From a virus: a stretch of DNA of 64,000 bases. This document shows, piece after piece, positions 1 to 64,000 of this stretch. Numbering within the stretch: the stretch's first letter is position 1; every line of letters starts with the position of its first letter. The stretch lies in the IMG/VR virus record IMGVR_UViG_3300046387_000246, positions 1 through 64,000 of that record; one strand, given 5' to 3'. Below the pieces are notes generated by a model. It did no database searches and was not told where the DNA came from. It saw only the letters and a list, made by a program, of their open reading frames with translations. A program made the position numbers and the translations under genes.

Positions 1-42
1 TGGATTCTCAACAGACAACGAAGTAAAAGGACTTAACTTCAG

Positions 43-222
43 ATGAAAAGACGTTACATTTTTGAATGCGAAATTGAAGTCAGCGATCTAGATGATATTC
101 AATGGAAGCATCTACCCGAAGAGATACAAATGTATCTAGATTCTAACTATGAGCATAATAACACATCAAATGTTATTAGGTGGAATATTAGAGATAAATT
201 CCCTTTAATTAAGGACAGTTAA
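43..222 (+). CDS. small early hypothetical protein (59 aa, MKRRYIFECEIEV...FPLIKDS)
   Basis: Manually translated ORF below the track cut-off; ATGA overlap with an upstream partial ORF; its stop lies inside the repeat element at 214. Confidence 0.7.
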   Translation: MKRRYIFECEIEVSDLDDIQWKHLPEEIQMYLDSNYEHNNTSNVIRWNIRDKFPLIKDS

Positions 223-269
223 ATATGTGTCACAATACACCTAGAATAGGGTACAAAATACCTTATAAT
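214..269 (+). promoter_or_regulatory. early promoter element copy 1: GACAGTT-N6-GTGTCAC, 30 bp, TATAAT
   Basis: GACAGTT 214-220, GTGTCAC 227-233, TATAAT 264-269; no -35 box; one of five copies with conserved spacing. Confidence 0.85.
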
Positions 270-294
270 AGTAGTATAGAAACAAAAAGACTAA

Positions 295-522
295 ATGAAA
301 CCAAATCTTTACACAATGATGTTCAATACAGTCTTATCGATAGACTTTGGAAGAACATTCTGGTTAGATGAGCAAAAAGAACTATGTTCAGCACCAACTT
401 TTACAGATGGTTCAACTGACTGGGATATGTCAGACTATGTTTGCGACTGGACAGATCTAGATGGTATAAATCTAGGTAAATTACTTAACATTCAAAAATC
501 ACTTCTTAAGGACTTCCAATAA
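295..522 (+). CDS. early hypothetical protein
   Basis: 75-aa ORF directly downstream of promoter copy 1. Confidence 0.75.
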   Translation: MKPNLYTMMFNTVLSIDFGRTFWLDEQKELCSAPTFTDGSTDWDMSDYVCDWTDLDGINLGKLLNIQKSLLKDFQ

Positions 523-818
523 TGACAAACGATACAAAACTCACAAATGACCAACTCACCGAAATGAAGGATTCATTCGTTGAGATTATGGTAGATGGGA
601 TGGACACCAAAACCTTAGCACGTTATGTTTATGACTCAATGAGTGAGTACTATGAAAAGATGAATGAACACGATTTCAAAGAAGAAATGGATAATTACGA
701 TGAATGCCTTTATGATGAGTTAATGGAAAATGCACTCATTGAAGATGAAGAAGAAAAAGAAGAACACTTCTCAGAAATTCTATTTGATAGAGAAGTTGGA
801 GGTGCTATTGATGACTAA
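522..818 (+). CDS. highly acidic early hypothetical protein
   Basis: 98 aa, very D/E rich, TAATG coupling to the previous ORF. Confidence 0.8.
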   Translation: MTNDTKLTNDQLTEMKDSFVEIMVDGMDTKTLARYVYDSMSEYYEKMNEHDFKEEMDNYDECLYDELMENALIEDEEEKEEHFSEILFDREVGGAIDD

Positions 819-1020
819 TTACAATTCACCTAGTGAGATCGGTGTTGGTGATGTTGTAAAGTACAATAACACACAATACACAGTTTTGACCAATTACATA
901 AAAGGTCAGACTGATGCAAAAGGTCATACACCTAGAGAAAACAGAACTATTTTAATTGATGCAGAAGACAATCGTACAATGTGTCAAGATTTTAACCTAT
1001 TGGAGATTATTTCACAATGA
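811..1020 (+). CDS. early hypothetical protein, possible SH3-like barrel (IGVGDVVKY...)
   Basis: Track ORF 730..1020; the start is more likely ATG 811 (GGAGG upstream), which minimises overlap. Confidence 0.65.
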   Translation: MTNYNSPSEIGVGDVVKYNNTQYTVLTNYIKGQTDAKGHTPRENRTILIDAEDNRTMCQDFNLLEIISQ

Positions 1021-1472: not shown

Positions 1473-1476
1473 TCTA

Positions 1477-2087: not shown

Positions 2088-2252
2088 ATGGACAATTACA
2101 CCGCACTTCTCACTCTCATAGGAGACATCAATAACTCTTTCTCTCATCTAGAGGACGAGGATTCAGCAGATATATGCGATGGTGACATCAAATTGCTAGA
2201 CAAAGCAGTTAAAAGATTTAAAACTACAGTATGGGAGAATCAACTAAAATGA
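2088..2252 (+). CDS. small early hypothetical protein (54 aa, MDNYTALLTLIGDINNSF...)
   Basis: Manual ORF; GAGG RBS; TGA overlaps the ATG of the nuclease gene. Confidence 0.7.
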   Translation: MDNYTALLTLIGDINNSFSHLEDEDSADICDGDIKLLDKAVKRFKTTVWENQLK

Positions 2253-2761
2253 ACGTAATACAAATGTTTTCAGCAGAACAACGCTATCAAAAACTATTTG
2301 AACAAATGTATGAGATATGCGAAACTGAAGGATGGGGTGACCCATTCTCTTATGCAAGATCTAGAGAAATCCATATGGCAGGCGTTTTAGGTCATAGGGT
2401 TGCGGATGACTATTCTGGTGCGGATGCATATGATAAGTATGATCTACCAGTAGAATATAAGTCCACTATAGGTAAGAAACTAACAGCAACTTACAATGGA
2501 ATTTCAGTTCAAGATAGTTGGGATAAACAAGTAGAATACATTCTCAATGAAAAGATCGGAAAATACCATCATCACTATTATGCACGATATGAAGGAGGTC
2601 AGATAGTTGAAGTATGGAGACTAACAGCGAAGCAAGTCTATGATAAATTACTTCCAAATCTCAAAAGACAATTTCATTCAACTAAGGTTAAAAAAGACCC
2701 TAGACTTGGATATACTCTATCAGAAAAGTATATCTATGAAGTTGGTACACAAATCATTTAA
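2249..2761 (+). CDS. PD-(D/E)XK endonuclease, PvuII-like type II restriction enzyme fold
   Basis: Motifs align end to end with R.PvuII as I recall it: EGWGDPF~HGINDIF, GADAYD..VEYKS~GNDAVD..YELKS, IGKY..YYARYEGGQIVEVWRL~IAKY..WIFAIYRGIAIEAIYRL, EKYIYEVGTQII~VKYVMEHGTKIY. Start probably 2249 (ATGA coupling). Confidence 0.7.
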   Translation: MNVIQMFSAEQRYQKLFEQMYEICETEGWGDPFSYARSREIHMAGVLGHRVADDYSGADAYDKYDLPVEYKSTIGKKLTATYNGISVQDSWDKQVEYILNEKIGKYHHHYYARYEGGQIVEVWRLTAKQVYDKLLPNLKRQFHSTKVKKDPRLGYTLSEKYIYEVGTQII

Positions 2762-4071: not shown

Positions 4072-4199
4072 GCAATAAAAACACCCCATTAACGGAAGAG
4101 GTCTATAAGCAACTATGCGACCCTAGTCCCATTATACAATATTACTTTCAAATAAAACCAAATGAGAAGGAGGAGGATTTGACAGGGGTAGAAAACTGA
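4068..4199 (+). CDS. small hypothetical protein (43 aa)
   Basis: Manual ORF with ATGA overlap, ending just before a terminator hairpin. Confidence 0.5.
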   Translation: MSNKNTPLTEEVYKQLCDPSPIIQYYFQIKPNEKEEDLTGVEN

Positions 4200-4207
4200 T
4201 ATATACT
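4179..4207 (+). promoter_or_regulatory. host-like sigma70 promoter TTGACA-17-TATACT
   Basis: TTGACA 4179-4184, TATACT 4202-4207, upstream of the HNH ORF. Confidence 0.75.
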
Positions 4208-4231
4208 AGAGGGTATTATATCCCTCTTTTT
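4208..4231 (+). terminator. Rho-independent terminator-like hairpin ending the early cluster
   Basis: AGAGGG-tattatat-CCCTCT followed by a T run. Confidence 0.55.
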
Positions 4232-4244: not shown

Positions 4245-4574
4245 ATGAACCCATTTAAAAAGATCGATGAATCGACTTACCAGGATAGCGAAGGCATCCT
4301 ATATAAACCTATTCCACAATATGAGGATTATTTCGTTTCTAACCTAGGGGAAATATATTCTACGAAGTGGGGTAAATGGAAGAAATTAAAGACTCATCTT
4401 AATGAAAACGGTTACCGAAGAGTTACTTTAAGACAACACGGTAAAACCGTAGTCCGAAGGTGTGCTAGACTTACCGCACTTGCATACCATCCCCACGGAG
4501 ATAACAATCTCAACGTCATTCATATAGATAAGGACAAAGTAAACGACAAAGCGATAAACCTAAAATGGTTATAG
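4245..4574 (+). CDS. NUMOD4 + degenerate/truncated HNH protein
   Basis: YKPIPQYEDYFVSNLGEIYS (NUMOD4), NGYRRVTL, VIHIDKDKVNDKAINLKWL; ends before the usual T..EN..H helix. Confidence 0.75.
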   Translation: MNPFKKIDESTYQDSEGILYKPIPQYEDYFVSNLGEIYSTKWGKWKKLKTHLNENGYRRVTLRQHGKTVVRRCARLTALAYHPHGDNNLNVIHIDKDKVNDKAINLKWL

Positions 4575-4750: not shown

Positions 4751-4780
4751 TTGACAAATTAGGAAAACGTAGGTTATAAT
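4751..4780 (+). promoter_or_regulatory. consensus sigma70 promoter TTGACA-18-TATAAT
   Basis: TTGACA 4751-4756, TATAAT 4775-4780. Confidence 0.8.
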
Positions 4781-6318: not shown

Positions 6319-6858
6319 ATGAGCTTTGACTTTGATATTGAAGATGAATACTTAGATGCTAAGTCTCTTTGCATACTGCAAGAAGAGATGACTAGCGATA
6401 GGTTCAACTGGAATCTATCTACTAAGGTGGAGGATCGTGCTCTTGATATGCTATTTCCGAACGTAGGACTTTGGAATTGGCAACTATGTAATGTAATGTA
6501 TTCTAATGGACGACCTCTAACTGATGAGTATGACCTTGTACTGCCCTTAATTAATAGGATCTCACCGCGTGCGTTAATACGAGTAAAGGCGAACCTAGTC
6601 CCTATAACTGAGTCTAGGAGAGAGTACGAGTTTCATACGGATTTACATCCAGAAGGGTATGAGGGTGCAAAGACCTCGATCTTCTATGTAAATACTAATA
6701 ATGGTTTTACTTCCATACGAGATGAGATAACTGGTTTTCAAAGAGATGTTGAGTCTAAAGAGAACAGGTTACTTAGTTTTCCACAGGAAGTAATGCATAG
6801 GGGTACCTCTTGTACTAATGCCTCAAATCGTATTGTTATCAACCTTAACTATTTTTAA
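6319..6858 (+). CDS. 2OG-Fe(II) oxygenase superfamily protein
   Basis: FHTD (HxD), IFYVNTNNG, VESKENRLLSF, MHRG, RIVINLNYF. Confidence 0.8.
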   Translation: MSFDFDIEDEYLDAKSLCILQEEMTSDRFNWNLSTKVEDRALDMLFPNVGLWNWQLCNVMYSNGRPLTDEYDLVLPLINRISPRALIRVKANLVPITESRREYEFHTDLHPEGYEGAKTSIFYVNTNNGFTSIRDEITGFQRDVESKENRLLSFPQEVMHRGTSCTNASNRIVINLNYF

Positions 6859-7098
6859 ATGATCGGATCCGAAATGTATGCTATCAGAGACTTGCTTCTC
6901 TCTTGCCCACCTGTGTATACCCTACCAGGTACGTGGACTAAGTGTAATGCTATAATTCCACACTATAATGCTAATCCTAATGCAACGTTTGCTATTTCTA
7001 TTCTAGTGATCCTTATTCTGGGTACTGGTTATGGTCTATATAAAGCGTTCTTTGATAACAAGGAGTTAGCAGATCCTTGGGATGATCACGATGATTGA
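6859..7098 (+). CDS. psbN: PsbN (photosystem biogenesis factor) homolog with N-terminal extension
   Basis: TM helix then TGYGLYKAF..KELADPWDDHDD, matching PsbN TGY.LY.AF...L.DPFEEHED. Confidence 0.8.
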   Translation: MIGSEMYAIRDLLLSCPPVYTLPGTWTKCNAIIPHYNANPNATFAISILVILILGTGYGLYKAFFDNKELADPWDDHDD

Positions 7099-7100
7099 TT

Positions 7101-7628
7101 ATGAGAATGTTAATTGAACCGTTCGGACCTAAGATACTCAGGTCTTTTCTACCTGAGAAATACAGACAAGCTTTGTTAGCAGATGCATTTAATATGGACG
7201 ATGATGCATCTCCTATCCTTGCAGGTCAAGTTAATGAGCAGTTATACTTCTATCCCGAAGAAGGGATAATGACTCCTTTTAACTATGCAGTGCACGAGTA
7301 TCTGGGAGAACAAAGATTACATACTATCGAACCCTTATGGGTAAACTTTGCAGTAGCAGGTGATTGGCAACCTGTACACAACCACGATGGTGACTTAAGT
7401 ATGGTTGCATTCCTAGATGTGCCAAAAGGTATTTACGAAGAGACTGAGATAGCAGGTTCCTTGTTCTTTCAGTATGGAGAGAGGATACAACATAATAAGA
7501 ATACTTACGGACCTATTAAACCCCAAGTAGGAGAGTTCTTTATCTTTCCTAGTTGGTTAAACCATTATGTGTATCCTTTTGTCTCGTCGGGACAGAGGAT
7601 CTCACTCTCAGGAAACATTTACACTTAA
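7101..7628 (+). CDS. 2OG-Fe(II) oxygenase (TIGR02466-like)
   Basis: WVNF..GDWQPVHNH, PQVGEFFIFPSWLNHYVYPF, RISLSGNI; start ATG 7101 or 7107. Confidence 0.8.
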   Translation: MRMLIEPFGPKILRSFLPEKYRQALLADAFNMDDDASPILAGQVNEQLYFYPEEGIMTPFNYAVHEYLGEQRLHTIEPLWVNFAVAGDWQPVHNHDGDLSMVAFLDVPKGIYEETEIAGSLFFQYGERIQHNKNTYGPIKPQVGEFFIFPSWLNHYVYPFVSSGQRISLSGNIYT

Positions 7629-11000: not shown

Positions 11001-11422
11001 CCTATAACACAATACAATTTGCTACGTGTACAAATGGCAAGTTTCCTAATCCGTGCTGGCACAATTTCATTGCTGATGGCGTACTTGATGTTTATAGTGG
11101 ATATGATGAGAACGGTAATGGGCTTGCATCTGATAACATATGCACAGGACAACCTTTCTCAGACCCATCTACGTGGGTGCAGAGTAGTGTCTTAAACTCA
11201 TATGGTGAATGTGCTGCATTGCAGAACATTGTGCACTCTACTGTGGCATTTGACACAGGTAAAACTAACGAAGATAATCCATACATAGAACTAGGACCGA
11301 TAAACGGTAATATGCACTGGGTCAACTACCTTCCTGGTGCAACACATCTATTAACCCAATCATTAAAGAGATATGGTAATCCGTATTTCGACGAATGCGA
11401 TATAATTGAACCTGAACAATAA
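7964..11422 (+). CDS. large virion structural protein (baseplate hub/spike-associated)
   Basis: 1152 aa; G.I..I.I.N.G..Y motifs shared with baseplate proteins; directly upstream of PAAR; TATAAAT at its start. Confidence 0.6.
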   Translation: MGAYLIETGRSYQNPIDSHDYNRTYTAADSPHIGNLVTSGSDGEMSVDKNATGGTYTITTGGGAGSYQFGKDEVYYIGTQQTTRIEYAYAERREIYRWYSGRRNDHLYYDQVDLDDSLPMNPKRYNKEPRNGREVFLLSKDSHTGNTQVYLHYDAANFNSYLSTSSTGALRSLGYIWSSQAAADTAQIVHPSEDLLPLYHYRRANPVDDLYTTDPTKETNIQTDVSGVPNSPNPGNQEYQYQGIYGYVFSRTAPRYRNQYVDVGKPINTGEVNRSNWYSWSGGYNEDAYNNSSPPASTLGWGNPDNAEINDSKANFEWFYGKNGAVKACLPKFLGFHDAFEGQFVYYLYDTTFPFSGPIYGINLITTDAPCNPSTADCPHDPHTLYHSYYYEMRQDAWETKKTHISVDTPGQDGLSESFWAVGTDDQMVFFRYTTETGFFVPGEQVNGWLIQSVRYFGDELRCGFMRLQTIAGAKGNVFTYQQTFTSTNSGTASILAGYGIPDKAAFFGVYEFPKKLSYYKAEIDNDALIPQRNFDEAILQAYVSEKGEIEEIEIINAGKDYKDPDIIISIPDIRRVEGFTDTATNIPEMFVDGISGEPQLNFQTTEDFEQSNKAGRETVTHLEKQKWETDAGYTKSVKQAKASIILNEEGCIKSVTILEPGAGYQPGEEVGVRVVERDKETREDTFVGEDTKNVQAELDNSFDSDDTPKEVRDALKDPMRIMKEGLSSIDTTISTDYVTGYIGVADLEKDEKTKFCDKIPSECLSPDLGKNWYRLGNIINPDTYVGGIASSPNSTPIANELTKFLSPSVSNNVAHSNYLEEKTSNGLPGMFGGACLETFQAKLYGVKRFFDVPCPMTGYDQYGKYKTFGFIPYKYCGSKQESAQVRVSISVEGDVSKKGETVNQAFLDWLESLPKPTLTRPRPVMDGNTDKTTKSHACNRGGDVNGRCFATGNGTYSFVPEAGDENTFDFVGTELEKLATWVGPGNYNSYGTGTVEITDTMLTPPNDTYSHTYNTIQFATCTNGKFPNPCWHNFIADGVLDVYSGYDENGNGLASDNICTGQPFSDPSTWVQSSVLNSYGECAALQNIVHSTVAFDTGKTNEDNPYIELGPINGNMHWVNYLPGATHLLTQSLKRYGNPYFDECDIIEPEQ

Positions 11423-11955
11423 TGGCATTAGGAGTCTTAAAACCAGTTGCGAATCATAATGGGTTACCTGACACAGGTCACGGTATACCTATTCCTTCGA
11501 CTATTCATAGTACACAACCTTGTAATAGTCCTCCTATTGAATTACCAATTATTGTTAAGGACAAAACTTGTTTATGGCCACCAACACCATTGGTTCCATT
11601 AACTGCTCTCAATCCAATGCGAGCAACAGTATTGGTAAATGGTTTGCCAATTATGATTAACTCTGATACTTTTACCACACACAGAAGTATCACAACCAAT
11701 ATTATTAACTATGTGTGCCCTTGTGGTAAGGCAATGTGCATTATACCGACTCCTATTAACTGTAGTTTGCTTACTATGGAAGATATGAAGGGAATTGGAC
11801 ACGGAAGAACACTATGGGCAACTACATTTACTGTATTTGCGTTCAAAATTCCTATTGGTCGTCTTACAGACCCATTAGGATTCGGTGTAACTGGTAAATC
11901 TTGGCCGTGTTCGTCTGCTATTGCCTTTGGAAGTCCAAATGTATTGGCAGGTTGA
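11422..11955 (+). CDS. PAAR-like spike tip protein (T4 gp5.4-like) with Cys/Pro-rich insertions
   Basis: DTGHG, ATVLVNGLPI..DTFTTH, GHGR, TVFAFKIPIGRLTDPL, C...IAFGSPNVLAG. Confidence 0.75.
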   Translation: MALGVLKPVANHNGLPDTGHGIPIPSTIHSTQPCNSPPIELPIIVKDKTCLWPPTPLVPLTALNPMRATVLVNGLPIMINSDTFTTHRSITTNIINYVCPCGKAMCIIPTPINCSLLTMEDMKGIGHGRTLWATTFTVFAFKIPIGRLTDPLGFGVTGKSWPCSSAIAFGSPNVLAG

Positions 11956-12165: not shown

Positions 12166-12573
12166 ATGGCGTATCGGTTTAACGCAGAAAGAAATTTATC
12201 ACGTCAATTCCGTGACCTCAGTATAGGGATGAAAGCAAACCCCAATACTGAGGATTTTTCTATTGTAAAGAATCAGAATGCTATTAAGCAAGCGATGAAA
12301 AACCTTATCCTGACAGGATTTGGTGAGAGACCATTTCAACCAACTAAAGGATCTCGTTTACGTCAGATGCTTTTTGAACCTTTTGATGTGTTTATGTCAG
12401 AAGAACTTAAAGAAGAGATGTTTAACGTATTAAAGACTTTTGAACCTCGCATCGTGGTTAATGAAATAAGAATGATACCTGGTGAACCAAATGAACTAGA
12501 AGTGGAAGTTGATTACACCATTGTAGGAGAGACCCTCATACAAACTGTTGATTTCTTATTGGAGAAAGTATAA
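12166..12573 (+). CDS. gp25: baseplate wedge/sheath initiator gp25
   Basis: AIKQAMKNLILT..GERPFQP..GS.L..LFE, FEPRI; CTAAATA late promoter at 12132. Confidence 0.92.
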   Translation: MAYRFNAERNLSRQFRDLSIGMKANPNTEDFSIVKNQNAIKQAMKNLILTGFGERPFQPTKGSRLRQMLFEPFDVFMSEELKEEMFNVLKTFEPRIVVNEIRMIPGEPNELEVEVDYTIVGETLIQTVDFLLEKV

Positions 12574-14682: not shown

Positions 14683-17600
14683 ATGAAGGCTATTACAATA
14701 TCAGATAGGTTGCAGGATCAAATTCCTGCATTCATTAAAGAAGATAACGACCAGTTTGTCAATCTTTTAACGCAATATTATAAATCTCAAGAGAAATCGG
14801 GTCGTCCGTACGATGTTTTAAGTAACATACTGAGATATACAGATATTGGTTCGGGAGAATTTGACCCAAATTTCCTTTCTTCTACCTCTGCTGTACTAGA
14901 AAGAGTAGATCCGACACAAAAAACTATAATTGCAGAAAACGTAAATTACTTCCTCGAAAATGATGGTACAATTAAGATCGATGAAGAAGTCATTTACTAT
15001 GACAAAATTACACACTCTCCTGACATTGTTTTCACGCCTGGTGTTGACAAAGCCGAATTCGATAGAAAAATCCAAGAATTCGAACCAATTTCTGATCAAT
15101 TTGATGGTTCAACAACGCTATTTCCTTTAAGGTTACTTGGAAAACCTGTAACTCCTCAAAGTTCACAACATCTTCTTGTTATTGTAAATAACGAGTTTAA
15201 ATATCCAGATGTAGACTATTTCCTTGAAGGAGATAAGATACGTCTTGTAAACCCCCCAGAAACCCCTACAGGACTGCTTACAGGTGCTATCAATACAGTT
15301 CGTTACCTAATTGGTTACACAAGCATTCCTGTACGTTCTCTGGACACCATTACTGTTGCTAATGATGCTAAAGAATTTGAATTAAAGTTAGACGGATCAA
15401 GTTATACTCCATTATCTACTGTATCTTCTATAGTTGTTGTTAATAGAGTAGAAAAACGTCCATATGAAGATTTTACAATATTTGAAAATAAATTAATCTT
15501 TAAAGAGGATATTGGTGAAAATTCTGTTATCGCTATTCGTTCAATTGAACTTATTGCACCTGAATTTGGTGGTGGTGCGAGTGCAGTTGCTCAAATTGAA
15601 GATGAGAAGTTAAAATCAGTTATTGTTAAGGAAGGTGGTAGTGGATATCGTTTAAGTTTCGCTCCTAAGATTAGTGTTGCGTCAACTAAGGGTACTGGGT
15701 TTGGTGCTACTGCTGAAGCACTTGTTAATGGTATTAAAGAGACTCAATTACTATTTGCAGGACAAGGTTACGCTTCAAACAATCCTCCAGTTGTTATTGT
15801 TGACTCACCTGCTGACCCTGAAGGTAAAACTGCTCAAATCCGTGCAGTTGTTGATGATTCCATCGAAGGGGTCTCACAACTCATTGTAGACAGTTCAGGA
15901 AGTGGTTACGATAGGATCCCATCGATCAAATTCCAGAATCCTGGTGGTGCAACCATTAGTAACCCAACGTTAACTAACGGTGTGATCGATCCTGATTCAA
16001 TTACTGTCACAGATGATGGTTCAGGATATACTACTGCACCTCTTGTGTATTTGGATCTTCCAACAGGTGACAATGCCATAAGAGCTAACGTTGTTGCAAC
16101 AATTGATGCATTCGGGCGTGTTAATGGCATTACAGTCGTTTCAGGAGGACAAGGTTACACCAGTGTTCCTAGAGCACGTATTATTGATCCTGTAGGTGCA
16201 CAAATACTTGATGTCAATGTAACTGCGGGTAGAGTTACTAATATTGAACTATTAACTGGTGGTGCAGGTTACACAGACGCTCCATCGGTGTATATCGTTG
16301 ATAATAGGAAGGATATTACTGGTGCACCAGCTGGTGGTACTGGAGCAACTGCTGTTGCAACCATATTCAACGGAGAGATTACTGATATCAATATAACCAG
16401 TTTTGGAAATGGATACTCAGAAACAGAACCTCCTCAAGTTTTTATTGCTGCTCCACCTGCACCTGAAGCGTCTTGTGACGTTGGTTTTGGTGAAATTACT
16501 GGATTTACGATCCATAGTGCAGGTTCTGGATATCAACCATCTGCATTTGTTAACTGTAAGCGTGGTGTTTCTAGCACATCTTCATTTGATCAGAAAGGAA
16601 ACCAAGTATACAGTACAGAAGCATCTACAATTCAATCTTCACACGAGATTGGAGGAGTCATTCACAACCTAGATACACTCTTTGCTAAGGAATTATACAG
16701 AAGGTACGTAAATCAATATCTACCAAATGCGGAAATTGACTATGAAAAAGTAAATGCTCCGCAGATCATTAAAACTATTTCGGATTTTTACGCATCTAAG
16801 GGTACAAAGATCTCAACACAGTACCTATTCAAGATGCTGTTCTCTGAGAATGTGGATGTATCTTATCCAAAAGATGAGGTTATTAAACCATCTGCTGCAT
16901 CTTGGAACGTAGATACAGTCCTCCGTGCTGAACTTATAGAAGGTGATCCTATTGATTTACTTGATTCACAGTTAATTCAGTATGTGGATGACGTAGATAA
17001 CTCTGTTAAGGGTGCATCTGCACTGATTGAGAACGTTATTGCTATCAATACTGGTGTAGGAACTGTATATGAACTTGCTATATCTGAGGAAACACTACAG
17101 GGTTCATTCACTATACCCTACAAAACAACTCTTGTAGAATCACTTAACACTACAGAATCAATCATTACTGTTGACTCTACGATTGGTTGGCCAGAAAGAA
17201 ACGGAACTATCCGTATTAATGATACTGAGCAAGTACAATATAAGGAAAAGACACTTAACCAGTTCATTGAGTGTACACGTTCTAAGAATGGTGTTGTTGA
17301 AGATTGGGATGCGGGAACTGTAATTCACTCTGATATATTTGTATATTGCAATCGTGGAACCAATACTGAGATTAAATTGCGTGTTTTAGGTATTGCTGAT
17401 GCAAAATCTACCGTATTGACTGATACTGGTTCGTACTACTTACCTGGTGATAAATTAAACGTTGCATCTCTAGGTTCTACTGCTACAGATCAGCGTATCA
17501 CTTCTTGGTTGTATAACGTTAAGAAACTGATAAACGTTACTGATATTGTACCTGGCGGACTTAATAACCAGACTGCAACCGTAACTTGCTCTAATAAGCA

Positions 17601-35600: not shown

Positions 35601-38600
35601 TCCTGGTAGTGGTGCTTGGTTAGTTGCAACTAAGGTAAGTACAAATCATTTCCACGTTAATGTTGGTAACTTCTTTGGTAGAGGTCCGATTTCTAATCAG
35701 ACAACTCACTCATTTGTATCTGCAACTGCTAATGGTGTAGAGAAAGCAAATGATAAAATCAAGATGGCAGAAAACTCAGTTACATTTACTTGTGCTAAAG
35801 ATGATAATGAAACTCTCCATCCATATCCTAGACAAAATGATCCTGCATACAACGAATATCTACCTATTTCTGATGTAACTACTCACGAGTTTGATGTATT
35901 TGTTGGTCGTGCAAACTTAGATCAGACTGTTCATCAGTTCTACTCTGCAACAGATAACGGAGTTACACATCCTACTGGAAATATTACAATCAACGTTGGT
36001 ATTTCTTCTAACACTACAACTCACAACTACGTTACCACTACTACAACTTACGATATAACTGGAGCGACCTACAGCCCAACTACAGGTGTAATGACGCTGA
36101 CCATTCCTAATCATAAGATGTATGTGGGTGAGTACATTTATCTTGCTGATGGTGCTGTTACCTTTAGTCAAGGTGCTTTACCAAATTCAAATGATGAAGT
36201 AAGTGGAAGAATGATTCGTGTACAAGGTGTAATTTCTGATAACCGCATTCTTATTGTTTACGGAACTAATAGTAATACTGCATCTTGGTCATATCAATCT
36301 GCTACTGCTGGTGCAGTTACTAAACCTAAGATTCTTGGTGGTGGTGTTTACAATCACAAGTATGTTAGTTCTACTGGTATGGCAGTTCGTGGTGGTGGAC
36401 ATTATACTCACCAATTCGAAGGTCCTGCTAAGACAACTGTTACTGACGCTGCATACAATCCTACTTCAGGTGTTATGACTGTTACAGTTCCTAACCACGG
36501 TTGGGAAACTGGAGATGGTGTTATTATCGATGACGATTCTATCGTATTCACTTGCACACAAGATAGTGGTGCTACTGAACATCCATATCCAAGATCAAAG
36601 GATCCTGTAAGTCGTCAGATTCTTACAATTTCAAATGTAACTACTAACACATTTGATGTACAGGTTCTAGCAACCACACCTTCTACAAACACAACTACTC
36701 ATACATTTGTAAGAGCAACTAAGCACGGTATCAGAAGAGCTGCTATTCACACTGGTGGTGCTTATAATCACATCTTTGTTAGTTCTACAAATGATTCTCT
36801 AACATCATATGTTGGTGGTGGTGCTGCTCGTTGTCAAAACGAAGCATCTGCTATTACTACATTAATGAATATTCCTATCAATCTATTTGGTAGTGGATCA
36901 GCTAATCCAAATACTTACATAAGTGGTATTACTAGAACTCTACCGAAGGAGTGGCCACTAACAGGTGAACGTGCAATTCAACGTGATATTTCAATCACAT
37001 ATGATAGTGGATCTGGTGACTGTGCAACTGAAGCATCTACAATTAGTACATTATTTGGATACTTAATTAATGTTATTGACACTGCTTCTAAAGGAAATGG
37101 TAACTACTTTACTAACCAATCAATAACAAGAAACGCACCTGCTCAAACTAATACACTTCTTGCTGGTGGTGGTATTTGCTATAACGTAGTTTCTGCTATG
37201 TCAACATTGGCAGACTTGTTAGAAGATACTCTTGGACAAGCTCCTGAAATGTATCGTCAAACTGCAAGACTACTATTATTGAATGACACATACGTCAGAC
37301 GTGAATCATATTATAAGACAGTACAAACTTACGCAGGTTATAACGGTGACGAAGATTTCGGTGATTCAGTACGTAAAGCATTTATTTATGACTTACTCAC
37401 AGACGGTAATATTGCAACAATCGACTTAGTTAATAGTTGGTTTGATGCCGAGGGTAATTTCATCGCGTATCCTGGCATCTTCAGGACACAATTAATCTTC
37501 CACGCAGACGCTGTTAAAGAAATGTGTGTCAAGATTATTAAACAGAAAGCAGATAATCCTGGTGGATATAACCAAGAGATTCCTTATGAGAATAAGGAGT
37601 ATCGTCCTACTGAGACTGCTGAACACAAATTACATCAACTATATCATATAATTGACGTTGCACTTAACCGTTCTACATTCCCATCAATTTACTTGAAGTT
37701 TAACTTTGATGTTGGTGCTCAGGTTAATCAGAATGGTTCACTTGATGCTCCTGATGGACACAACTTCGAAGCATATGATCGTGTAACTTATACAGTTCTT
37801 GGTACTGCTATTGAAGAATTAGATCGTACAACTTATATCATTCACCCAGACACATCAGAGAATCTAATCTGGTTGGCAGAAGAGATTGATGGTGAGAAAC
37901 TTACCGTACTATCTCCAGGCACACCTGGTCAGACTCACCAATTATCTGTATCTGATGAGACTGGTATCAATAGAGTTCCTACAACTTACGGTACACGTAA
38001 TGTTCCTACACCTATTACTGGTGGTATCAATACTGCTGATATATTCTTCGGTGAAACTTCAGGTGCATATGGTGAAGTTATTAGAATCCAAGACAACTTA
38101 GCAGATATTCTATACGCTGTTAAGTGGATGCCACTCACACGTACAAGTGATCCTGAGACATTTGTTAACGGTGAAGAAGTTGTTAAGACTGGTGCTACTG
38201 GTAACAAAGGAACTATCCTCGCTACAGACAATGCAACATATGTGAAGATTATTATTACTGGTGGAAACATTCAATCTGGTGATGCAATCGAGGGATCTAC
38301 CTCTGGTGCTACAGGTAATATTGGATCTGATATTCACGATCGCTTATTGATCAACATCAAGCAAGGTGATTTCATTGCTACTGATATACTTTATGCTAAG
38401 AATGCTACAAGTAAGGCAGAAGCATTGATAGTACGTAATAACGATGGTGCTCTACTTGATAACCAATCTGGACGTGTCACATTTGACATTGAATCTGTTA
38501 AAGGTCAATTCAATAGTGGCGATGTTATCTACGGTTCTGTTACTGATCAAATCATCGAGATTGAAGGATTTAATATCCTTCCTGGATTTGGAGAATATAT

Positions 38601-50200: not shown

Positions 50201-53200
50201 TGGTATTGATTATTCTAGCATTCCAAGTGTTTCATTCAATGGTGAGAGTAGAGAACTCAGAGATGTTCTTGACTTCAGACCTGCCGTAACTCCAGTTCTT
50301 TCTGGATCAGGAACGGTTGGATCACCATACTATGTTAACTGTGCATCGTTAGACTTTAAAGATAGAGGATTCTCTTCTGGTGGTGTTTCAAATAACGCTA
50401 CGATTATTGATATTCCAAAACCAGAATCAGACTTCCGTTGTGACTATGATTATTATGTAAGTAGAATTGATAAGTTATTCTTAACTGATCAACAGAAATT
50501 CAAACTTGTTAAAGGTATTCCTGGTGAAGGAGATGATGTACCTGGTAATATTGATAATGCGATGTTACTTGCTACTTTATATCACGAACCTTATGGATAT
50601 GATCCTAGGAATGTAAAAATTGTTAGAGAAAACAACAGACGATTTACTATGCGTGATATCGGTCTGATTGAAAGACGTGTTGATAATTTAGAATATTATA
50701 CTGCCCTAAGTTTACTTGAACTAGAAACATCATCTATGTCTGTTAAAGACTCTGATGGTTTCGATAAGTTTAAGAATGGTTTCCTTGTAGATGACTTTAC
50801 ATCTTTTGATTCAGCAGCAACACTACACGAAGACTTTGCTTGTGCTGTTGACTTTGCTGGTGGTCAGTTACGTGCATCACATTACACAACTAATGTACCA
50901 CTCCAATATAATGCTTCAGGATCTTCAGGAGTTACTTATCACACAACAGGAACTTTAACACTTCCATATGAAGAGATTACATTTATTGTTCAACCTTATG
51001 CATCACGAGTTGAGAATGTAAACCCATTCAACGTGTTTGCTTACATTGGTAGATTAGATCTATTCCCATCATCTGATGACTGGGTAGATACACGTCGTGC
51101 TCCTGATGAAGTTGTGAACTTAGAAGGTGATTTTACTGCACAGGTTCAACGTTTTGGAGGAGATACAAACACAGGATTTGTTCCAACACAATGGAACTCT
51201 TGGAGAACTAACTGGTCTTCAAGTTCTAATAGATCTGATACTCAGACTATGAGAAGGGGTTCTTGGCCATTCATTAGAAGGATTACAACTAATACTACAA
51301 ATACAACCAGATCACAAACACGTTCTGGTATTAGAACTACTATCACACCAAGAATTGATAGACAATCTCTAGGTGATAAGGTAATTGAAAGGACAGTAGT
51401 TCCATTTATTAGATCAAGAAACATTGCGTTTAAGATTCAACGTCTAAAACCAAATACAAGATTCTATGCTTTCATTGATAATGTCAACGTAAATTATTAC
51501 ACCTCACCAAGATTAATTGAGGTTATTAAGAACCCAACTGATGATACTCGTACTAATAACACTCCATTTGTTAATGGTGAAACTGTTGTTGGTCAAACAT
51601 CTGGTTGTAGATTAAGGATCGTAAGTCCAGACACAGGATTTGATGATGGTTTAAGTCCCTATGATAGTTCTGAACTACCAACATCTTATGCATCTACCAC
51701 ACCTCTTCTTAACATCGATACTAAAACGATGTCTGAAACAGTTGCAGGTACTTACTTTGGTAACCCATTAGAAACTGAAATTCTAGTTGGTCAATCTTCA
51801 GGTGCTCGTGCTGTTGTTAAAACAAAACGTTTAGTTGCAAACACTAACGGTGATATGGAAGGTATTATGTGGATACCTAATCCTGGTGTACAAACTAACC
51901 CAAGATTTGCTACAGGTACACGTGTTATTAGATTAACAACTTCAGAAAAAGACTCTAGAGTTCCTGGTACTGTTGACTCTGCTGCATCTGCTAACTACGT
52001 TGCATCTGGTGTCATCGAGACTAAGCAACAAACAATTCTTGCTGTTAGAAATGCTGACATTGTAAGAGATACAGTTGTTAGTGATCGTGTTGTTAACGAT
52101 AACTCCACATCAACCAGAGACACAGGTTGGTATGACCCTCTTGCTCAGTCCTTCTTGGTTGAGTCTAAGGGTGGTGCATTTATTTCTAGTGCTGAATTGT
52201 ATTTCAATACAAAGGATGCAAGAATTCCTGTATCAGTACAGATCAGAGAGATGGCAAATGGTTATCCAACTACTAAGGTTCTTGCTTTCTCTGACGTTAC
52301 TCTTCTACCTTCACAGATCAATCTATCTGAGAATGGTACAGTTTCTACAAGATTTACATTCCCATCACCTGTATACGTTACAGAGAATAGAGAATACTGT
52401 TTAGTTGTTCTTTCTGACTCAAACGAATACAAACTCTGGATCTCCAGAATGGGTGAGGATGACGTTACTAATGACAGAACGATCTCTGAACAGCCATATG
52501 CTGGTGTTCTATTCAAATCACAGAACGCATCTACTTGGACTGCTGACCAGTATGAAGATTTAAAATTCAACATATACAAAGCTAGTTTTAGTACCTCTGG
52601 TTCTGGTACTGCTATATTCAATAACTCTGAACTTGCTATAGGTAACAGTGGTATTGCTCAGTTACGTTCTAATCCAATCAAGACTCTAAAACCAGAGATT
52701 AAGATTATCCTTTCAGATCACCAAGCAAACTTTACTATCGGTGCTGAGATTACACAGACGGATACATCTCCTATACCTTCAGCGATTATTAGATCTGTTG
52801 TACAAGGTATTTCAGGTTCATCTAATGCTTATATCATCGTTGATGATGTAAACGGAACATTTAGAGAAGGTGTTCAGTCTGGTTCTAATTACATCTATAG
52901 ACTTGTATCTTCAAGATCACTTGCTGATATTACATTAACTGGTGTGACAGGTACGTTTGCAACTGGTACTGCTGTAACAAATGGTACTGGTGCATCTGGT
53001 ATGGTCACCGCTTGGAATTCAGGTACTGGTGTTCTTTCAGTTAAGTCTGTTACTGGTACGTTTGCAGACGCAGACGCAATTCAACAAGAGACTGGTGGAT
53101 CTACAACTGGATCTGGTACTATCGGATCTAGTGGTGTAACAGCAACTGGAGATGATATTAACGATTACCCTGCTGCTCCTATCTCATACTTCAACCAAGC

Positions 53201-61705: not shown

Positions 61706-61707
61706 TT

Positions 61708-62028
61708 ATGAAACCATTTCCACTTAAATTTGTCCCTTTATTATTTGTGCTTTGTTGCCTAGCATCATTCACTATAAATGTGGCACCTGTATTTGCTAAT
61801 CACTTACCAGTGATGTATGTACAAGTACCTCAGTGGGCAGATGATTGGGCAGTGTGTGCTGTTGATATACCTGATGCTAAATGTCATTGGTATGTTATGG
61901 CACCTGATAATACATTTGGTGAGGGATTTGACTGGGAGAGTGCTCCTTGGTTTGATGCCAATGGATTAAGTGATATCGCTCCTATGGGTAAAGAAACAGT
62001 TGTACAACAACTACAATATCAAAAGTAA
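61708..62028 (+). CDS. hypothetical exported/membrane protein
   Basis: AAGGAG RBS; hydrophobic signal-like N-term; Trp-rich core WADDWAVC...CHWY. Confidence 0.7.
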   Translation: MKPFPLKFVPLLFVLCCLASFTINVAPVFANHLPVMYVQVPQWADDWAVCAVDIPDAKCHWYVMAPDNTFGEGFDWESAPWFDANGLSDIAPMGKETVVQQLQYQK

Positions 62029-62846
62029 TGGCACAACCTAATTCAAAAGCAACATTAAAGGAGTTTGCTCTTCGTAGACTCGGTAAACCTGTATTGGAAA
62101 TAAATGTTTCTGATGATCAGGTAGATGATGCATTAGATTATACTATTGAAAAGTTTCAAGAATATCACTACGGTGGTTCTGAGAAGATGTATATGAAGCA
62201 TCAGTTTACTGCTGAAGATTTAGCTAGGTTCCAAGCAGATGAATCTACAACTGGTACTGATACTTTACAGGCAGGTAATACAGGAACTGTATTTAAAACA
62301 CAGTCAAACTATTTGATAATGCCTGATCATATTCGGGCAGTGAATGGTATCTTTACTTTCCAAGATAAGGGTACTGCAAATATGTTTGATATTAGATATC
62401 AGTTACGTTTGAATGACCTGTTTGATTTTACATCAACACAGTTTCATCATTACTATATGATTCAGACACACCTTCAAACTATTAACTTCTTACTAGAAGG
62501 AATGAAACCAACTAGGTTCAATGCTTCTAATGGTAAGTTGTTTATTGATATGGATGTTCTAACTGATGTTAGAGAAGGTGAGTTTGTTGTTATGGAATGT
62601 GTCAGTGCTATTGATCCAGCTAACTGGACAAAAATATATAATATTATGTGGGTTAAAGATTATGCAACCGCAATGCTGAAGAAGCAATGGGGTCAAAATA
62701 TGACTAAGTTTCAGAACGTTCAATTACCAGGTGGAGTTACTCTTAATGGTGAGAAGATTTATTCTGATGCTGTGACTGAATTAGAACAACTAGATGAACA
62801 ACTTCGTAACACATACGAAACTCCACCTATGGATATGATCGGCTAA
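62028..62846 (+). CDS. gp13: neck protein gp13
   Basis: P.SK..LK...LRRLGKPVLEINV.DDQ, KKQWGQN..KF..VQLPGG.TLNG. Confidence 0.93.
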   Translation: MAQPNSKATLKEFALRRLGKPVLEINVSDDQVDDALDYTIEKFQEYHYGGSEKMYMKHQFTAEDLARFQADESTTGTDTLQAGNTGTVFKTQSNYLIMPDHIRAVNGIFTFQDKGTANMFDIRYQLRLNDLFDFTSTQFHHYYMIQTHLQTINFLLEGMKPTRFNASNGKLFIDMDVLTDVREGEFVVMECVSAIDPANWTKIYNIMWVKDYATAMLKKQWGQNMTKFQNVQLPGGVTLNGEKIYSDAVTELEQLDEQLRNTYETPPMDMIG

Positions 62847-63712
62847 TGGCTACTAATTCTTATTTCACAATGGGAACTTCGGGGGAACAGAACCTCGTTG
62901 GATCTCTAGTTAAAGAACAGATAAAAATGTTCGGTCAGGATGTGTATTACATTCCTAGAGTCATAGTGGATGAAGATCCTGCATTTGGTGAAGACTCGAT
63001 GTCTAAATTTGATGACGCATATATTATAGAAGCGTACTTAGAAAACGTACAAGGATTTGAAGGAGATGGAGATTTATACAGTAAGTTTGGTGTAAGGATA
63101 TCTGATCAAGTTACATTTGTTATATCAAGGGATAGGTTCACAGAGTTAGTGGATGACAATACAACTCTAGTGGTTGAAGGTAGACCTAATGAAGGTGACT
63201 TAATTTACTTCCCTTTAGCATCTAAGTTATTCCAAATTCAATATGTAGAATATGAAACTCCTTTCTTCCAATTAGGTAAGATTCATACTTGGGGTTTGAA
63301 ATGTGAACTCTTCGAGTTCAGCAACGAGAACTTCGATACAGGTGTGGATGCTATTGATGTAGTTGAAAGAAATTTCTCTACTACTATCACTCTAAATTTT
63401 GCAGAGGGTGGAAGTGGTACCTTTACTGCTGGTGAAACAATTGCAGGTGGTACATCTAATGTAACTGCTGAGGTTAAATCGTTTGATTCTACTACAAGAC
63501 AACTACAGATATACAACAGGTCTGGTATCTTTACAATTCCAGAAACCGTTACTGGACAGACATCTGGAGCAGCGTGGACAACCTCAAGTTATAATACCCT
63601 AAATAATACTAACTCAGAGTTTGATCAAAATCAATTCTTTGAGACAGGTGGTGATGCAATACTTGACTTTAGTCAAGGCAATCCATTTGGTGAATTCGGA
63701 GGCAAGAGTTAA
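62846..63712 (+). CDS. gp14: neck protein gp14
   Basis: N.YF..G..EQNL...L..EQIKMFG.DVYY.PR, SKFG, RPNEGDLIYFP, DFS..NPFG. Confidence 0.93.
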   Translation: MATNSYFTMGTSGEQNLVGSLVKEQIKMFGQDVYYIPRVIVDEDPAFGEDSMSKFDDAYIIEAYLENVQGFEGDGDLYSKFGVRISDQVTFVISRDRFTELVDDNTTLVVEGRPNEGDLIYFPLASKLFQIQYVEYETPFFQLGKIHTWGLKCELFEFSNENFDTGVDAIDVVERNFSTTITLNFAEGGSGTFTAGETIAGGTSNVTAEVKSFDSTTRQLQIYNRSGIFTIPETVTGQTSGAAWTTSSYNTLNNTNSEFDQNQFFETGGDAILDFSQGNPFGEFGGKS

Positions 63713-64000
63713 TGTTAGGAACATATTCGTACAACGAAATATTTCGTAAGACTGTTATCGCATTTGGTACTATCTTCAATAACATTGAAGTAAAACGTCA
63801 GGCAACTGGTGCAGCAACTGAAGTTATGAAGGTACCTTTGGCATACGGTCCGAAGGATAAATTTCTAGCACGTTTGAATCAAACTGCTGATGCAAGTGAT
63901 AGAACAACTCAAATTACTTTACCTCGTATTTCATTTGAAATATCTGGTTTCTCTTATGACACCACAAGGAAAGTAGCACCTACTCAGATCATACGTCACG
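63712..64000 (+). CDS. gp15: tail terminator/sheath stabiliser gp15 (partial, runs off window)
   Basis: Manual translation MLGTYSYNEIFRKTVIAFGTIFNNIEV...KVPLAYGPKDKFLARL...ITLPRISFE. Confidence 0.92.
   Translation, partial: MLGTYSYNEIFRKTVIAFGTIFNNIEVKRQATGAATEVMKVPLAYGPKDKFLARLNQTADASDRTTQITLPRISFEISGFSYDTTRKVAPTQIIRH

What the first reader, a model, noticed from the sequence alone, without database searches (positions are those of the whole stretch)
1..64000. Apparent purge of CATG from the genome (possibly also CCGG and GCGC)
Seen: I found no CATG in blocks read base by base (about 1-4.6, 8-10, 20-21, 52-53 and 61.5-62.8 kb, plus spot checks), whereas base composition predicts a few per kb. 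Codon choice appears to dodge it. His before G is CAC (cacggt, cacgat). Thr/Ala/Ser/Pro before Cys/Trp use NCT or NCG (the TFTC repeats read act-tgt) although NCA is common elsewhere. Asn/Asp/Tyr/Cys before Met use T-ending codons (cac-tgt-atg-cac-gac near 53230). I also saw no CCGG despite abundant Thr-Gly and Pro-Gly, and no GCGC, but checked those less carefully. GATC, AGCT, GTAC, TGCA and TCGA are common. Inference: strong selection by a CATG-cutting nuclease, either the host's or the phage's own.
Basis: partly seen in the sequence, partly recalled or inferred. Interest (0 to 1): 0.75.

Follow-up and report, generated by a model that had tools for sequence, protein, structure and literature searches.

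The report
CATG-free cyanophage with methylase-less nuclease
This stretch of a T4-like virus of marine cyanobacteria contains no CATG, CCGG or GCGC. The CATG loss is best explained by a restriction-type DNA cutter that the virus itself carries without the usual protective methylase, so its own DNA is probably spared only because it has no such sites.

Summary
The 75.5-kb contig holding the window has 0 CATG, where a protein- and codon-preserving shuffle gives 113±7. It also has 0 CCGG (45±6) and 0 GCGC (29±5).

The causes differ. ORF 2231-2761 is a PvuII-fold nuclease (R). In relatives it sits next to a small NPPF methylase (M). All 30 R-bearing loci that lack M have zero CATG (0 against 1944 expected in 560 kb). 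49 loci with M have 870 against 1685. Genomes with neither gene keep CATG. R stays intact and under purifying selection without M (dN/dS 0.13). The likeliest reading is that R cuts CATG and the phage is immune because it has no sites.

CCGG is absent across nearly all cyanomyoviruses sampled, whether or not they carry R. CCGG or GCGC loss also recurs in unrelated podoviruses isolated on NATL-type Prochlorococcus, so another, unidentified nuclease drives those.

Two caveats apply. Cleavage has not been tested, and the CATG-free phages may stem from a single evolutionary event. This scan reached the same reading earlier on other cyanophage DNA. I found no paper describing it.

The parts
1..64000 (.). 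Whole window, and the contig out to 75,493, with no CATG, CCGG, GCGC, CTGCAG or ACTAGT. AGCT is at 0.25 of expectation and RGCY at 0.29.
   Evidence: k-mer counts against composition, Markov and codon-preserving shuffles; codon-context tables
2231..2761 (+). Gene for a 176-aa PvuII-fold PD-(D/E)XK nuclease (R). An alternative start lies at 2249. It has no methylase partner on the contig and is the proposed CATG-specific enzyme.
   Evidence: AlphaFold2 model, pLDDT 90.3. The top 11 Foldseek PDB hits are all PvuII, E 2e-7, TM 0.63-0.73. Nine of 23 relatives match PF09225. D65, E75 and K77 are invariant or nearly so. No M homologue on the contig.
11576..11579 (+). GGCC forced by Trp-Pro (TGG CCA)
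11903..11906 (+). GGCC forced by Trp-Pro (TGG CCG)
17189..17192 (+). GGCC forced by Trp-Pro (TGG CCA)
36953..36956 (+). GGCC forced by Trp-Pro (TGG CCA)
51265..51268 (+). GGCC forced by Trp-Pro (TGG CCA)

Best explanation
The window comes from a T4-like cyanomyovirus (Kyanoviridae). Its genome has been cleared of several short palindromes by synonymous codon choice, and two separate agents are involved.

(1) CATG. The phage carries a PvuII-fold type II restriction endonuclease (ORF 2231-2761). In sister phages this enzyme is paired with a small NPPF-motif, presumably N6-adenine, methyltransferase. In this clade the methyltransferase is gone. I infer that the nuclease cuts CATG. With no methylase, any CATG in the phage genome would be a self-inflicted double-strand break, so every site has been removed and none can return. 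The enzyme would then cut only foreign DNA, either the host chromosome or co-infecting phages. Cyanomyoviruses lack the T4 host-DNA nucleases denA and denB, so this would fill that gap.

(2) CCGG, GCGC, avoidable GGCC, CTGCAG, ACTAGT and the RGCY depletion do not follow this gene. They look like classical restriction-site avoidance against nucleases encoded elsewhere, most likely in some host lineages.

Shown: the purges, the fold, the catalytic motif, the R/M/CATG association, and purifying selection on R. Inferred: the CATG specificity, the activity and the biological role.
For: The purge is real and synonymous.

R is a PvuII-fold enzyme. The model has pLDDT 90.3 and the top 11 PDB hits are all PvuII. 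PF09225 matches 9 of 23 relatives. The D-x9-E-x-K motif is conserved. A symmetric homodimer through the N-terminal helices is predicted: score 0.74, best of 3 controls 0.20. That mark was reached by 20 of 30 proteins solved as pairs of one chain and by 1 of 23 solved as single chains. The runs agree in 100% of contacts and partner pLDDT is at least 85. The pass may reflect memory of solved PvuII dimers.

Among 83 R-bearing loci, 30 lack M and all 30 have 0 CATG. Pooled, that is 0 against 1944 expected in 560 kb. The 49 loci with M have 870 against 1685 pooled. In an unbiased scan of all 4- to 6-mers, CATG is the only word that separates the two sets.

M is absent from three 94-100% complete genomes of the R-bearing clade, and a positive control found M in 5 of 5 records. 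One of these, G003 (181,945 bp with terminal repeats), has CATG 0 against 662 expected.

Among isolates, R and M occur in exactly the same phages: P-SSM2, P-SSM5 and P-TIM68. The sampled regions of P-SSM2 and P-TIM68 have CATG; P-SSM5 was not counted.

Seven isolates, none of them among the only R- or M-bearing isolates found, have CATG at 0.45-0.68 of expectation. Three complete IMG/VR genomes without R or M have it at about 0.5-0.7 in the stretch sampled.

M has the NPPF motif, so its target should contain A. That fits CATG and not CCGG.

Some M-bearing lineages already have 0-1 CATG. Clear cases of CATG present without M are nearly absent. That order, purge first and methylase loss second, is what a live CATG nuclease would impose.

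R is intact in all 30 loci without M, with dN/dS 0.13 against 0.11 where M is present.

The R family is abundant in marine metagenomes (1048 clusters). A motif-limited scan of 185,579 prokaryote genomes found one hit.

Podoviruses and R-less myoviruses isolated on the same host genera keep CATG.

[quoted passage not shown] Cyanomyoviruses lack denA, denB and ndd and may use an undescribed way of degrading host DNA (PMC2984593).
Against: No biochemical data exist. CATG specificity is inferred only from which word is missing.

The window protein itself has no Pfam match, and sequence searches of the PDB do not reach PvuII.

The association rests on few independent events. The CATG-free phages form one clade by the gp8-like core protein: at least 92% identity for all 16 CATG-free loci, at most 84% for all 64 others. 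On the R tree only about 3 changes of M state are needed, and a single M-less clade is not rejected (AU p = 0.08). A clade-specific host nuclease could therefore give the same pattern.

Locus L071 has an intact R, no M within 15 kb, and 27 CATG. Its contig is only 9% of a genome, so M may lie elsewhere, as in P-SSM2 where it is 7 kb away.

The window's own genome is only about 42% covered by the contig, so absence of M from the rest rests on relatives.

The cause of the CCGG, GCGC, GGCC, CTGCAG and ACTAGT purges is not identified.
Confidence: 0.65

Rival explanations
1. A host-encoded CATG-specific restriction enzyme, found in the hosts of this clade only, drives the purge. Once the sites were gone the phage methylase became useless and was lost. 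R is then a passenger kept for another reason, or has a different specificity.
For: The CATG-free phages form one clade by core gene and possibly by R, so a shared host range could explain the pattern. The other purged words (CCGG, GCGC) plainly have a cause other than R. Some M-bearing lineages are also strongly depleted in CATG.
Against: A type II nuclease kept under purifying selection without its methylase is tolerable only if its site is absent. CATG is the one word that distinguishes M-less from M-bearing genomes. M occurs only together with R in isolates, so M looks like R's partner and not a free-standing anti-restriction methylase. No podovirus or R-less myovirus sampled avoids CATG, including those isolated on NATL2A, the host of the nearest isolate. 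Restriction-modification is reported as uncommon in these hosts (PMC6708340).
Confidence: 0.2
2. Both forces act. CATG avoidance began as defence against nucleases of hosts or competing R-bearing phages. It reached zero, and that allowed loss of M. The phage's own R now enforces the state.
For: There is a gradient of CATG observed/expected from about 1.0 to 0 among M-bearing lineages, and CATG is at about 0.5-0.7 in R-less cyanomyoviruses.
Against: This reading cannot be told apart from the best explanation with the present data. It differs only in what started the decline.
Confidence: 0.1
3. The absence is an artefact or a mutational bias. Candidates are systematic basecalling error at a modified motif, library digestion, or deamination of methylated sites.
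For: None found.
Against: The same zero count appears in dozens of independent metagenome contigs from many samples and in a complete genome with terminal repeats. The replacements are synonymous and depend on codon context, and reading frames are intact. Mutational decay would not reach exactly zero out of hundreds of expected sites in every lineage.
Confidence: 0.02

Closest known systems
Restriction-site (short palindrome) avoidance in virulent dsDNA phages. Surveyed by Rusinov et al. 2018 (PMC6286503); Sharp 1986 from my own knowledge.
   Same: Short palindromic words are under-represented, and they are removed by synonymous codon choice.
   Different: Here several 4-mers are removed completely: 0 where 113 to 263 are expected in the contig, and 0 of 662 in a complete relative. 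For CATG the selecting nuclease appears to be the phage's own. The survey's text mentions neither cyanophages nor CATG.
PacI of Pseudomonas alcaligenes, a solitary restriction enzyme with no methylase whose host genome lacks the site (discussed in Ershova et al. 2012, PMC3488263)
   Same: A type II nuclease without a cognate methylase, with self-protection by absence of the recognition site.
   Different: PacI recognises an 8-bp AT-only site, which is rare by composition in a GC-rich bacterium. Here the word is 4 bp with hundreds of expected copies that had to be purged actively, and the carrier is a lytic phage.
R.PvuII / M.PvuII (CAGCTG; PF09225; PDB 1PVI, 2PVI, 1F0O)
   Same: The fold, the D...ExK catalytic motif, the small size (about 160-176 aa) and the predicted N-terminal helical dimer interface.
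   Different: Only 19-21% identity. CAGCTG occurs 9 times in the contig, so the specificity differs. The partner in relatives is a small NPPF methylase, whereas the PvuII methylase is an N4-cytosine enzyme (own knowledge). There is no partner at all in this clade.
Chlorovirus restriction-modification systems, e.g. R.CviAII / M.CviAII of PBCV-1, which recognise CATG and help degrade host DNA (own knowledge)
   Same: A virus-encoded nuclease with a 4-bp site, and the same word if the inference holds, usable against the host chromosome.
   Different: Chloroviruses protect themselves by methylation. This clade has no methylase and relies on having no sites. Homology to CviAII was not tested because no sequence was on hand.
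T4 host-DNA breakdown by denA and denB, with self-protection by hydroxymethylcytosine (own knowledge). The absence of these genes from cyanomyoviruses is noted in PMC2984593.
   Same: The proposed role: selective destruction of non-phage DNA during infection.
   Different: Self is told from non-self by sequence content (no sites) and not by base modification. The enzyme family is unrelated.

Membership tests
PvuII-family type IIP restriction endonuclease (PF09225, PD-(D/E)XK) | PvuII-like three-dimensional fold | tested here: met
   Model pLDDT 90.3. Foldseek ranks 1-11 are all PvuII, E 2e-7 to 3e-6, TM 0.57-0.73.
PvuII-family type IIP restriction endonuclease (PF09225, PD-(D/E)XK) | Catalytic D...(D/E)xK motif | tested here: met
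   GADAYD...VEYKS. D65 and E75 are invariant and K77 is conserved in at least 90% of 23 relatives. The D-to-E spacing is as I recall it for PvuII (D58/E68/K70, own knowledge). The motif is intact in all 30 copies without a methylase.
PvuII-family type IIP restriction endonuclease (PF09225, PD-(D/E)XK) | Match to the Pfam model above its cut-off | tested here: not met
   The window protein has no Pfam match at E <= 1. Nine of 23 relatives match PF09225, best E 5.7e-6, and P-TIM68 gp050 scores 18.5 bits against a cut-off of 25. Profile and single-sequence searches of the PDB do not reach PvuII.
PvuII-family type IIP restriction endonuclease (PF09225, PD-(D/E)XK) | Homodimer able to read a palindrome | tested here: inconclusive
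   The predicted complex passes: score 0.74 against a best control of 0.20. The mark was reached by 20 of 30 solved one-chain pairs and 1 of 23 single chains. The pass may come from likeness to solved PvuII dimers.
PvuII-family type IIP restriction endonuclease (PF09225, PD-(D/E)XK) | Sequence-specific cleavage, blocked by the cognate methylation | not testable with these tools
   Needs enzyme assays.
Type II restriction-modification system (linked R and M genes) | Cognate methyltransferase gene next to R or in the same genome | tested here: not met
   No M homologue on the contig or in three 94-100% complete genomes of the clade (positive control). In most M-bearing relatives M lies directly downstream of R.
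Solitary restriction endonuclease protected by absence of its site (PacI type) | No cognate methylase, and zero recognition sites in the carrier genome | tested here: met
   0 CATG in 75.5 kb here and 0 against 662 expected in complete genome G003. M is absent. That CATG is the site is an inference.
Solitary restriction endonuclease protected by absence of its site (PacI type) | The nuclease is active | not testable with these tools
   Indirect only: ORFs are intact and dN/dS is 0.13.
Restriction-site avoidance | The word is under-represented against a null that keeps proteins and codon usage | tested here: met
   CATG z = -15.6, CCGG z = -7.8, GCGC z = -6.2, AGCT z = -16.3. CTGCAG and ACTAGT are 0.
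Restriction-site avoidance | A nuclease of matching specificity in the host | not tested
   No host genome could be reached. HpaII and MspI family nucleases are absent from five cyanomyovirus records. Convergent CCGG or GCGC loss in podoviruses isolated on NATL strains points to a host-side cause.

The most novel reading that the evidence does not exclude
The patchwork of completely purged words across Kyanoviridae includes CATG here, TCGA in S-SSM4, CTGCAG and ACTAGT in this sub-lineage, and CCGG almost everywhere. In this reading it is driven mainly by site-specific nucleases carried by the cyanomyoviruses themselves and used against the host chromosome and co-infecting phages, and not by host restriction systems, which are reported to be rare in marine picocyanobacteria. 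Immunity would then be written into genome content, with no DNA modification, as a general way of telling self from non-self in this phage family.
Probability: 0.15. Interest if true: 0.85.

Novelty: new variant of a known kind. Interest (0 to 1): 0.62.

Why it matters
Cyanomyoviruses kill a large share of the ocean's Prochlorococcus and Synechococcus and recycle host DNA. They lack the T4 genes for host-DNA breakdown and do not use T4's modified cytosine. A methylase-less 4-base cutter, safe for the phage only because the phage has no sites, would supply a concrete and testable mechanism for destroying host DNA or excluding rival phages. It would also be an extreme case of a genome's word content being shaped by its own enzyme. 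The gene family is abundant in marine metagenomes (1048 clusters at 90% identity). In practice, CATG-free, CCGG-free and similar word profiles are sharp lineage markers for cyanophage contigs. The enzyme could also be a new small CATG-specific restriction enzyme.

Tried and rejected
An artefact or mutational bias is rejected. The same zero count appears in many independent assemblies and the changes are synonymous.

R is not CCGG-specific. Several R-bearing loci carry CCGG (L071, L072, L089, L099, L107), and its partner methylase has an adenine-type NPPF motif.

R is not specific for CAGCTG or AGCT. There are 9 CAGCTG and 76 AGCT in the contig.

The larger N6_N4 methylase (P-TIM68 gp049 type) is not the CATG protector. 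It is present in many CATG-free loci.

Known CCGG nuclease families HpaII (PF09561) and MspI (PF09208) are absent from five cyanomyovirus records.

No C5 cytosine methylase is present in G000, G001, G003, G004 or P-RSM6.

Sequence-only searches gave nothing for R in Pfam, NCBIfam or the PDB.

Tests of phylogenetic independence were underpowered. There were 2-3 independent pairs, and the AU test for one M-less clade gave p = 0.08.

Seven further CATG-free records showed no R. For the two longest, G013 and G014, I checked that the expected position, about 43 kb upstream of the gp8-like gene, falls beyond the contig end; the other five are only 7-23% complete. They are uninformative.

The promoter scan around R was no better than shuffles.

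Comparison with P-RSM6 at orthologous sites was of limited use because the proteins are only 33-82% identical.

Literature searches for cyanophage with site avoidance, CCGG, CATG or PvuII found no prior description.

Full report
**What the DNA is.** The window is the first 64 kb of a 75,493-bp viral contig, about 42% of a genome by CheckV. It carries the baseplate, neck and tail module of a T4-like cyanomyovirus. The nearest isolates are P-RSM6, S-SZBM1, S-WAM1 and P-TIM40, all Kyanoviridae, at about 70-78% nucleotide identity. GC content is 38%. Fifty-four of the 55 called genes are on the plus strand.

**The observation.** CATG is absent from the window. Composition predicts 222 and a Markov model 207. 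It is also absent from the whole contig, against 263 and 243. I shuffled synonymous codons within each gene 200 times, which keeps every protein and each gene's codon usage. This null is conservative, because codon usage has itself been bent by the avoidance. It gives 113 ± 7 CATG (minimum 90), 45 ± 6 CCGG and 29 ± 5 GCGC, and all three are observed at zero.

- The five most depleted 4-mers are all palindromes: CATG, CCGG, GCGC, AGCT (76 against 307, ratio 0.25) and GGCC (7 against 22).
- Six of the seven GGCC are TGG-CCN, that is Trp-Pro, which no synonymous change can remove.
- Two 6-mers are also gone. CTGCAG is 0 against 47.5 ± 5.6 and ACTAGT is 0 against 21.7 ± 4.0. RGCY as a class stands at 145 against 500.

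The codon dodge is exact.

- His before a G-initial codon is CAC 97 times and CAT never. Elsewhere CAT outnumbers CAC 164 to 85.
- NCA codons never precede TG (0 of 100, against 40% elsewhere).
- C-ending codons never precede ATG (0 of 142, against 24% elsewhere).

**Distribution among relatives.**

- Nineteen IMG/VR loci with 75-100% identity to the 624-aa baseplate protein encoded at 43824-45698 have 0 CATG and 0 CCGG.
- A second sample of 80 loci, taken through the gp8-like protein, is sharply bimodal. All 16 loci with at least 92% identity have 0 CATG. All 64 with at most 84% identity have CATG at roughly 0.2-1.0 of expectation.
- Seven isolates, about 45 kb each (P-RSM6, S-SZBM1, S-WAM1, P-TIM40, S-SSM4, S-TIM4, MbCM1), all have CATG at 0.45-0.68 of expectation. 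All have 0 CCGG and low AGCT and GGCC.
- Other words are lost lineage by lineage. GCGC is 0 in P-RSM6, P-TIM40 and P-SSM2. TCGA is 0 of 168 expected in S-SSM4. GTAC is low in P-TIM40 and S-TIM4. CTGCAG and ACTAGT are lost only in the window's nearest relatives.

CCGG loss is therefore nearly family-wide, and CATG loss marks one clade.

**The nuclease.** ORF 2231-2761 has no Pfam or NCBIfam match and belongs to PHROG 35715, of unknown function.

- Size of the family: 1048 clusters of marine relatives. They are very conserved and share an invariant GADAxD...EYKS core.
- Link to PvuII by sequence: 9 of 23 relatives match PF09225, the PvuII endonuclease family.
- Link to PvuII by structure: an AlphaFold2 model (pLDDT 90.3) finds PvuII as its top 11 PDB hits, E 2e-7, TM 0.63-0.73.
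- Predicted dimer: a symmetric homodimer through the N-terminal helices, score 0.74 against a best control of 0.20. That mark was reached by 20 of 30 solved one-chain pairs and 1 of 23 single chains. The runs agree in 100% of contacts and pLDDT is at least 85. The pass may reflect memory of PvuII dimers.
- Absence from cells: a motif-limited scan of 185,579 prokaryote genomes found one relative, on a 3.3-kb contig of a Flavobacteriales metagenome-assembled genome.

**The methylase link.** Among isolates, only P-SSM2, P-SSM5 and P-TIM68 carry R. The same three are the only cyanophages carrying a small (176-198 aa) methylase with an NPPF motif. In P-TIM68 this methylase lies directly downstream of R. 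In P-SSM2 it lies 7 kb away. The sampled regions of P-SSM2 and P-TIM68 have CATG.

I collected 83 R-bearing loci, with up to 10 kb of flank on each side where the contig allowed.

- The 30 loci without this methylase all have 0 CATG: 0 against 1944 expected in 560 kb.
- The 49 loci with it have 870 against 1685.
- In a scan of all 4-, 5- and 6-mers, CATG, together with the longer words that contain it, is the only word that separates the two sets. CCGG is near zero in both.
- The methylase is absent from three 94-100% complete genomes of the clade, and a positive control found it in 5 of 5 records.
- One of these, G003, is 181,945 bp with terminal repeats and has CATG 0 against 662 expected.
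- A second, G001, has 12 CATG, all within the last 2.4 kb of the contig. That looks like a chimeric end or a recent insertion.
- Three complete genomes with CATG have neither gene.
- R is intact in all 30 methylase-less loci, and its dN/dS is 0.13, the same as where the methylase is present (0.11).
- Some methylase-bearing lineages already have 0-1 CATG (L070, L073/L081, L072). The reverse combination appears clearly only in L071. Its contig is 9% of a genome, so the methylase may lie elsewhere.

**Reading.** A type II nuclease kept under selection without its methylase is tolerable only if its site is absent from the carrier. The only word absent from every such carrier, and present where the methylase is present, is CATG. 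All flanking contexts of CATG are purged, so the site is the bare tetramer. The partner's adenine-type motif fits CATG and excludes CCGG. I therefore take R to be a CATG-specific enzyme whose carrier is immune because it has no sites. This is the PacI situation (PMC3488263), but with a 4-bp word and in a lytic phage.

Its likely use is cutting host or rival-phage DNA. Cyanomyoviruses lack denA, denB and ndd, and have been suggested to use an undescribed method of host-DNA degradation (PMC2984593). From my own knowledge, chloroviruses use a CATG restriction-modification pair (CviAII) against host DNA, but with a methylase.

**Limits.** The specificity and the activity are both inferred. The CATG-free state is probably a single evolutionary event. 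It forms one clade by the gp8-like protein. The R tree needs only about 3 changes of methylase state, and a single methylase-less clade is not rejected (AU p = 0.08). The 30 loci are therefore not 30 independent trials, and a clade-specific host nuclease remains a live rival. The zero count does persist across lineages that differ by 10 points of GC and 25% in core proteins, which implies continuing selection.

**The other words.** CCGG, GCGC, GGCC and AGCT do not follow R.

- CCGG is 0 in R-less isolates.
- Cyanomyovirus genomes hold no HpaII or MspI family nuclease and no C5 methylase. The complete R-bearing genomes carry only a Dam-type methylase, which fits the over-represented GATC.
- The T7-like podoviruses P-SSP7 (isolated on MED4) and Syn5 (WH8109) and the siphovirus P-SS2 (MIT9313) show no such purges.
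- Podoviruses isolated on NATL strains do show them. P-SSP10 has CCGG 0 of 69 expected and CGCG 1 of 69. NATL1A-7 has GCGC 3 of 67 and CGCG 2 of 67.
- None of these unrelated phages avoids CATG or AGCT.

Convergence in unrelated phages of the same host group points to host-side nucleases for CCGG, GCGC and CGCG. The window's pattern (CCGG 0, GCGC 0, CGCG low) matches P-RSM6, which was isolated on NATL2A. This sits uneasily with the report that restriction-modification is uncommon in these hosts (PMC6708340). The agent remains unidentified.

**Earlier work.** This scan had already noted the same phenomenon and the same reading on other cyanophage DNA. I had started at 70% for a host nuclease. 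I re-derived every claim used here. Searches of the paper library found no published description.

**Verdict.** This is a new variant of known kinds: site avoidance and a solitary restriction enzyme. It is well supported by comparative genomics and ready for a simple biochemical test.

Noticed in passing
window 1-64000 (contig to 75,493): Two 6-bp palindromes are also completely absent. CTGCAG is 0 against 47.5 +/- 5.6 in codon-preserving shuffles and ACTAGT is 0 against 21.7 +/- 4.0. The loss is confined to the window's nearest relatives (L001-L003, L007-L010, L014-L016, L018). S-WAM1 also lacks CTGCAG.
   Followed up: partly
window 1-64000: RGCY as a class (AGCT, AGCC/GGCT, GGCC) is at 0.21 of the composition expectation, while YGCR is at 0.88. 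From my own knowledge, this matches the specificity of the chlorovirus enzyme CviJI.
   Followed up: partly
window 14683-40383 (+): A single open reading frame of 8,566 aa. It corresponds to the giant 'virion structural protein' genes of P-RSM6, S-SZBM1, S-WAM1, P-TIM40 and S-SSM4.
   Followed up: no
G001 (IMG/VR record behind L063), 185,063-187,347: This 187-kb genome is otherwise CATG-free but has 12 CATG packed into its last 2.4 kb. That suggests a chimeric contig end or a very recent foreign insertion.
   Followed up: partly
L024 (S-SSM4), L028 (P-TIM68), L023 (P-TIM40), L025 (S-TIM4): Other lineage-specific purges. TCGA is 0 of 168 expected in S-SSM4 and 2 of 121 in P-TIM68. ACGT is 11 of 121 in P-TIM68. 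GTAC is 33 of 167 in P-TIM40 and 46 of 156 in S-TIM4. S-SSM4 carries an annotated small 'endonuclease' at L024:47070-47525, which I did not examine.
   Followed up: no
L031, L032, L041-L043, L063-L067, L143-L147: Some CATG-free sub-lineages have also lost AGCT entirely in 12-21 kb loci, for example 0 of 73 expected. Complete genomes G003 and G001 keep only 16 and 13 AGCT against 662 and 690 expected.
   Followed up: no
L133 (P-SSP10) and L134 (NATL1A-7): T7-like podoviruses isolated on Prochlorococcus NATL2A and NATL1A show their own purges. P-SSP10: CCGG 0 of 69 expected, CGCG 1 of 69, and TCATGA, CCATGG and GGATCC all 0. NATL1A-7: GCGC 3 of 67 and CGCG 2 of 67. Podoviruses isolated on MED4 and WH8109 show none of this.
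   Followed up: partly
window 4245-4574 (+): A small HNH/NUMOD4 endonuclease-like ORF of the homing-endonuclease type. It sits between a terminator-like hairpin at 4208-4227 and a perfect sigma-70-type promoter at 4751-4780. A second near-perfect promoter lies at 4179-4207.
   Followed up: no
P-RSM6 record NC_020855, 46852-47679 (-): The match to the N6_N4 DNA methylase family contains one in-frame TGA. The gene may be broken or recoded in this isolate.
   Followed up: no
window 6319-6858, 7095-7628, 11422-11955, 12166-12573: Two 2OG-Fe(II) oxygenase-like genes, a PAAR-like protein and a gp25 baseplate wedge protein lie upstream of the giant ORF. PHROGs labels the first oxygenase 'DNA endonuclease V', which looks like a misleading family name.
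   Followed up: no
L038, L044-L052: On the R tree, a methylase-bearing, CATG-containing, low-GC (33%) group nests inside the otherwise methylase-less R clade. This suggests either transfer of R between lineages or repeated loss of the methylase.
   Followed up: partly
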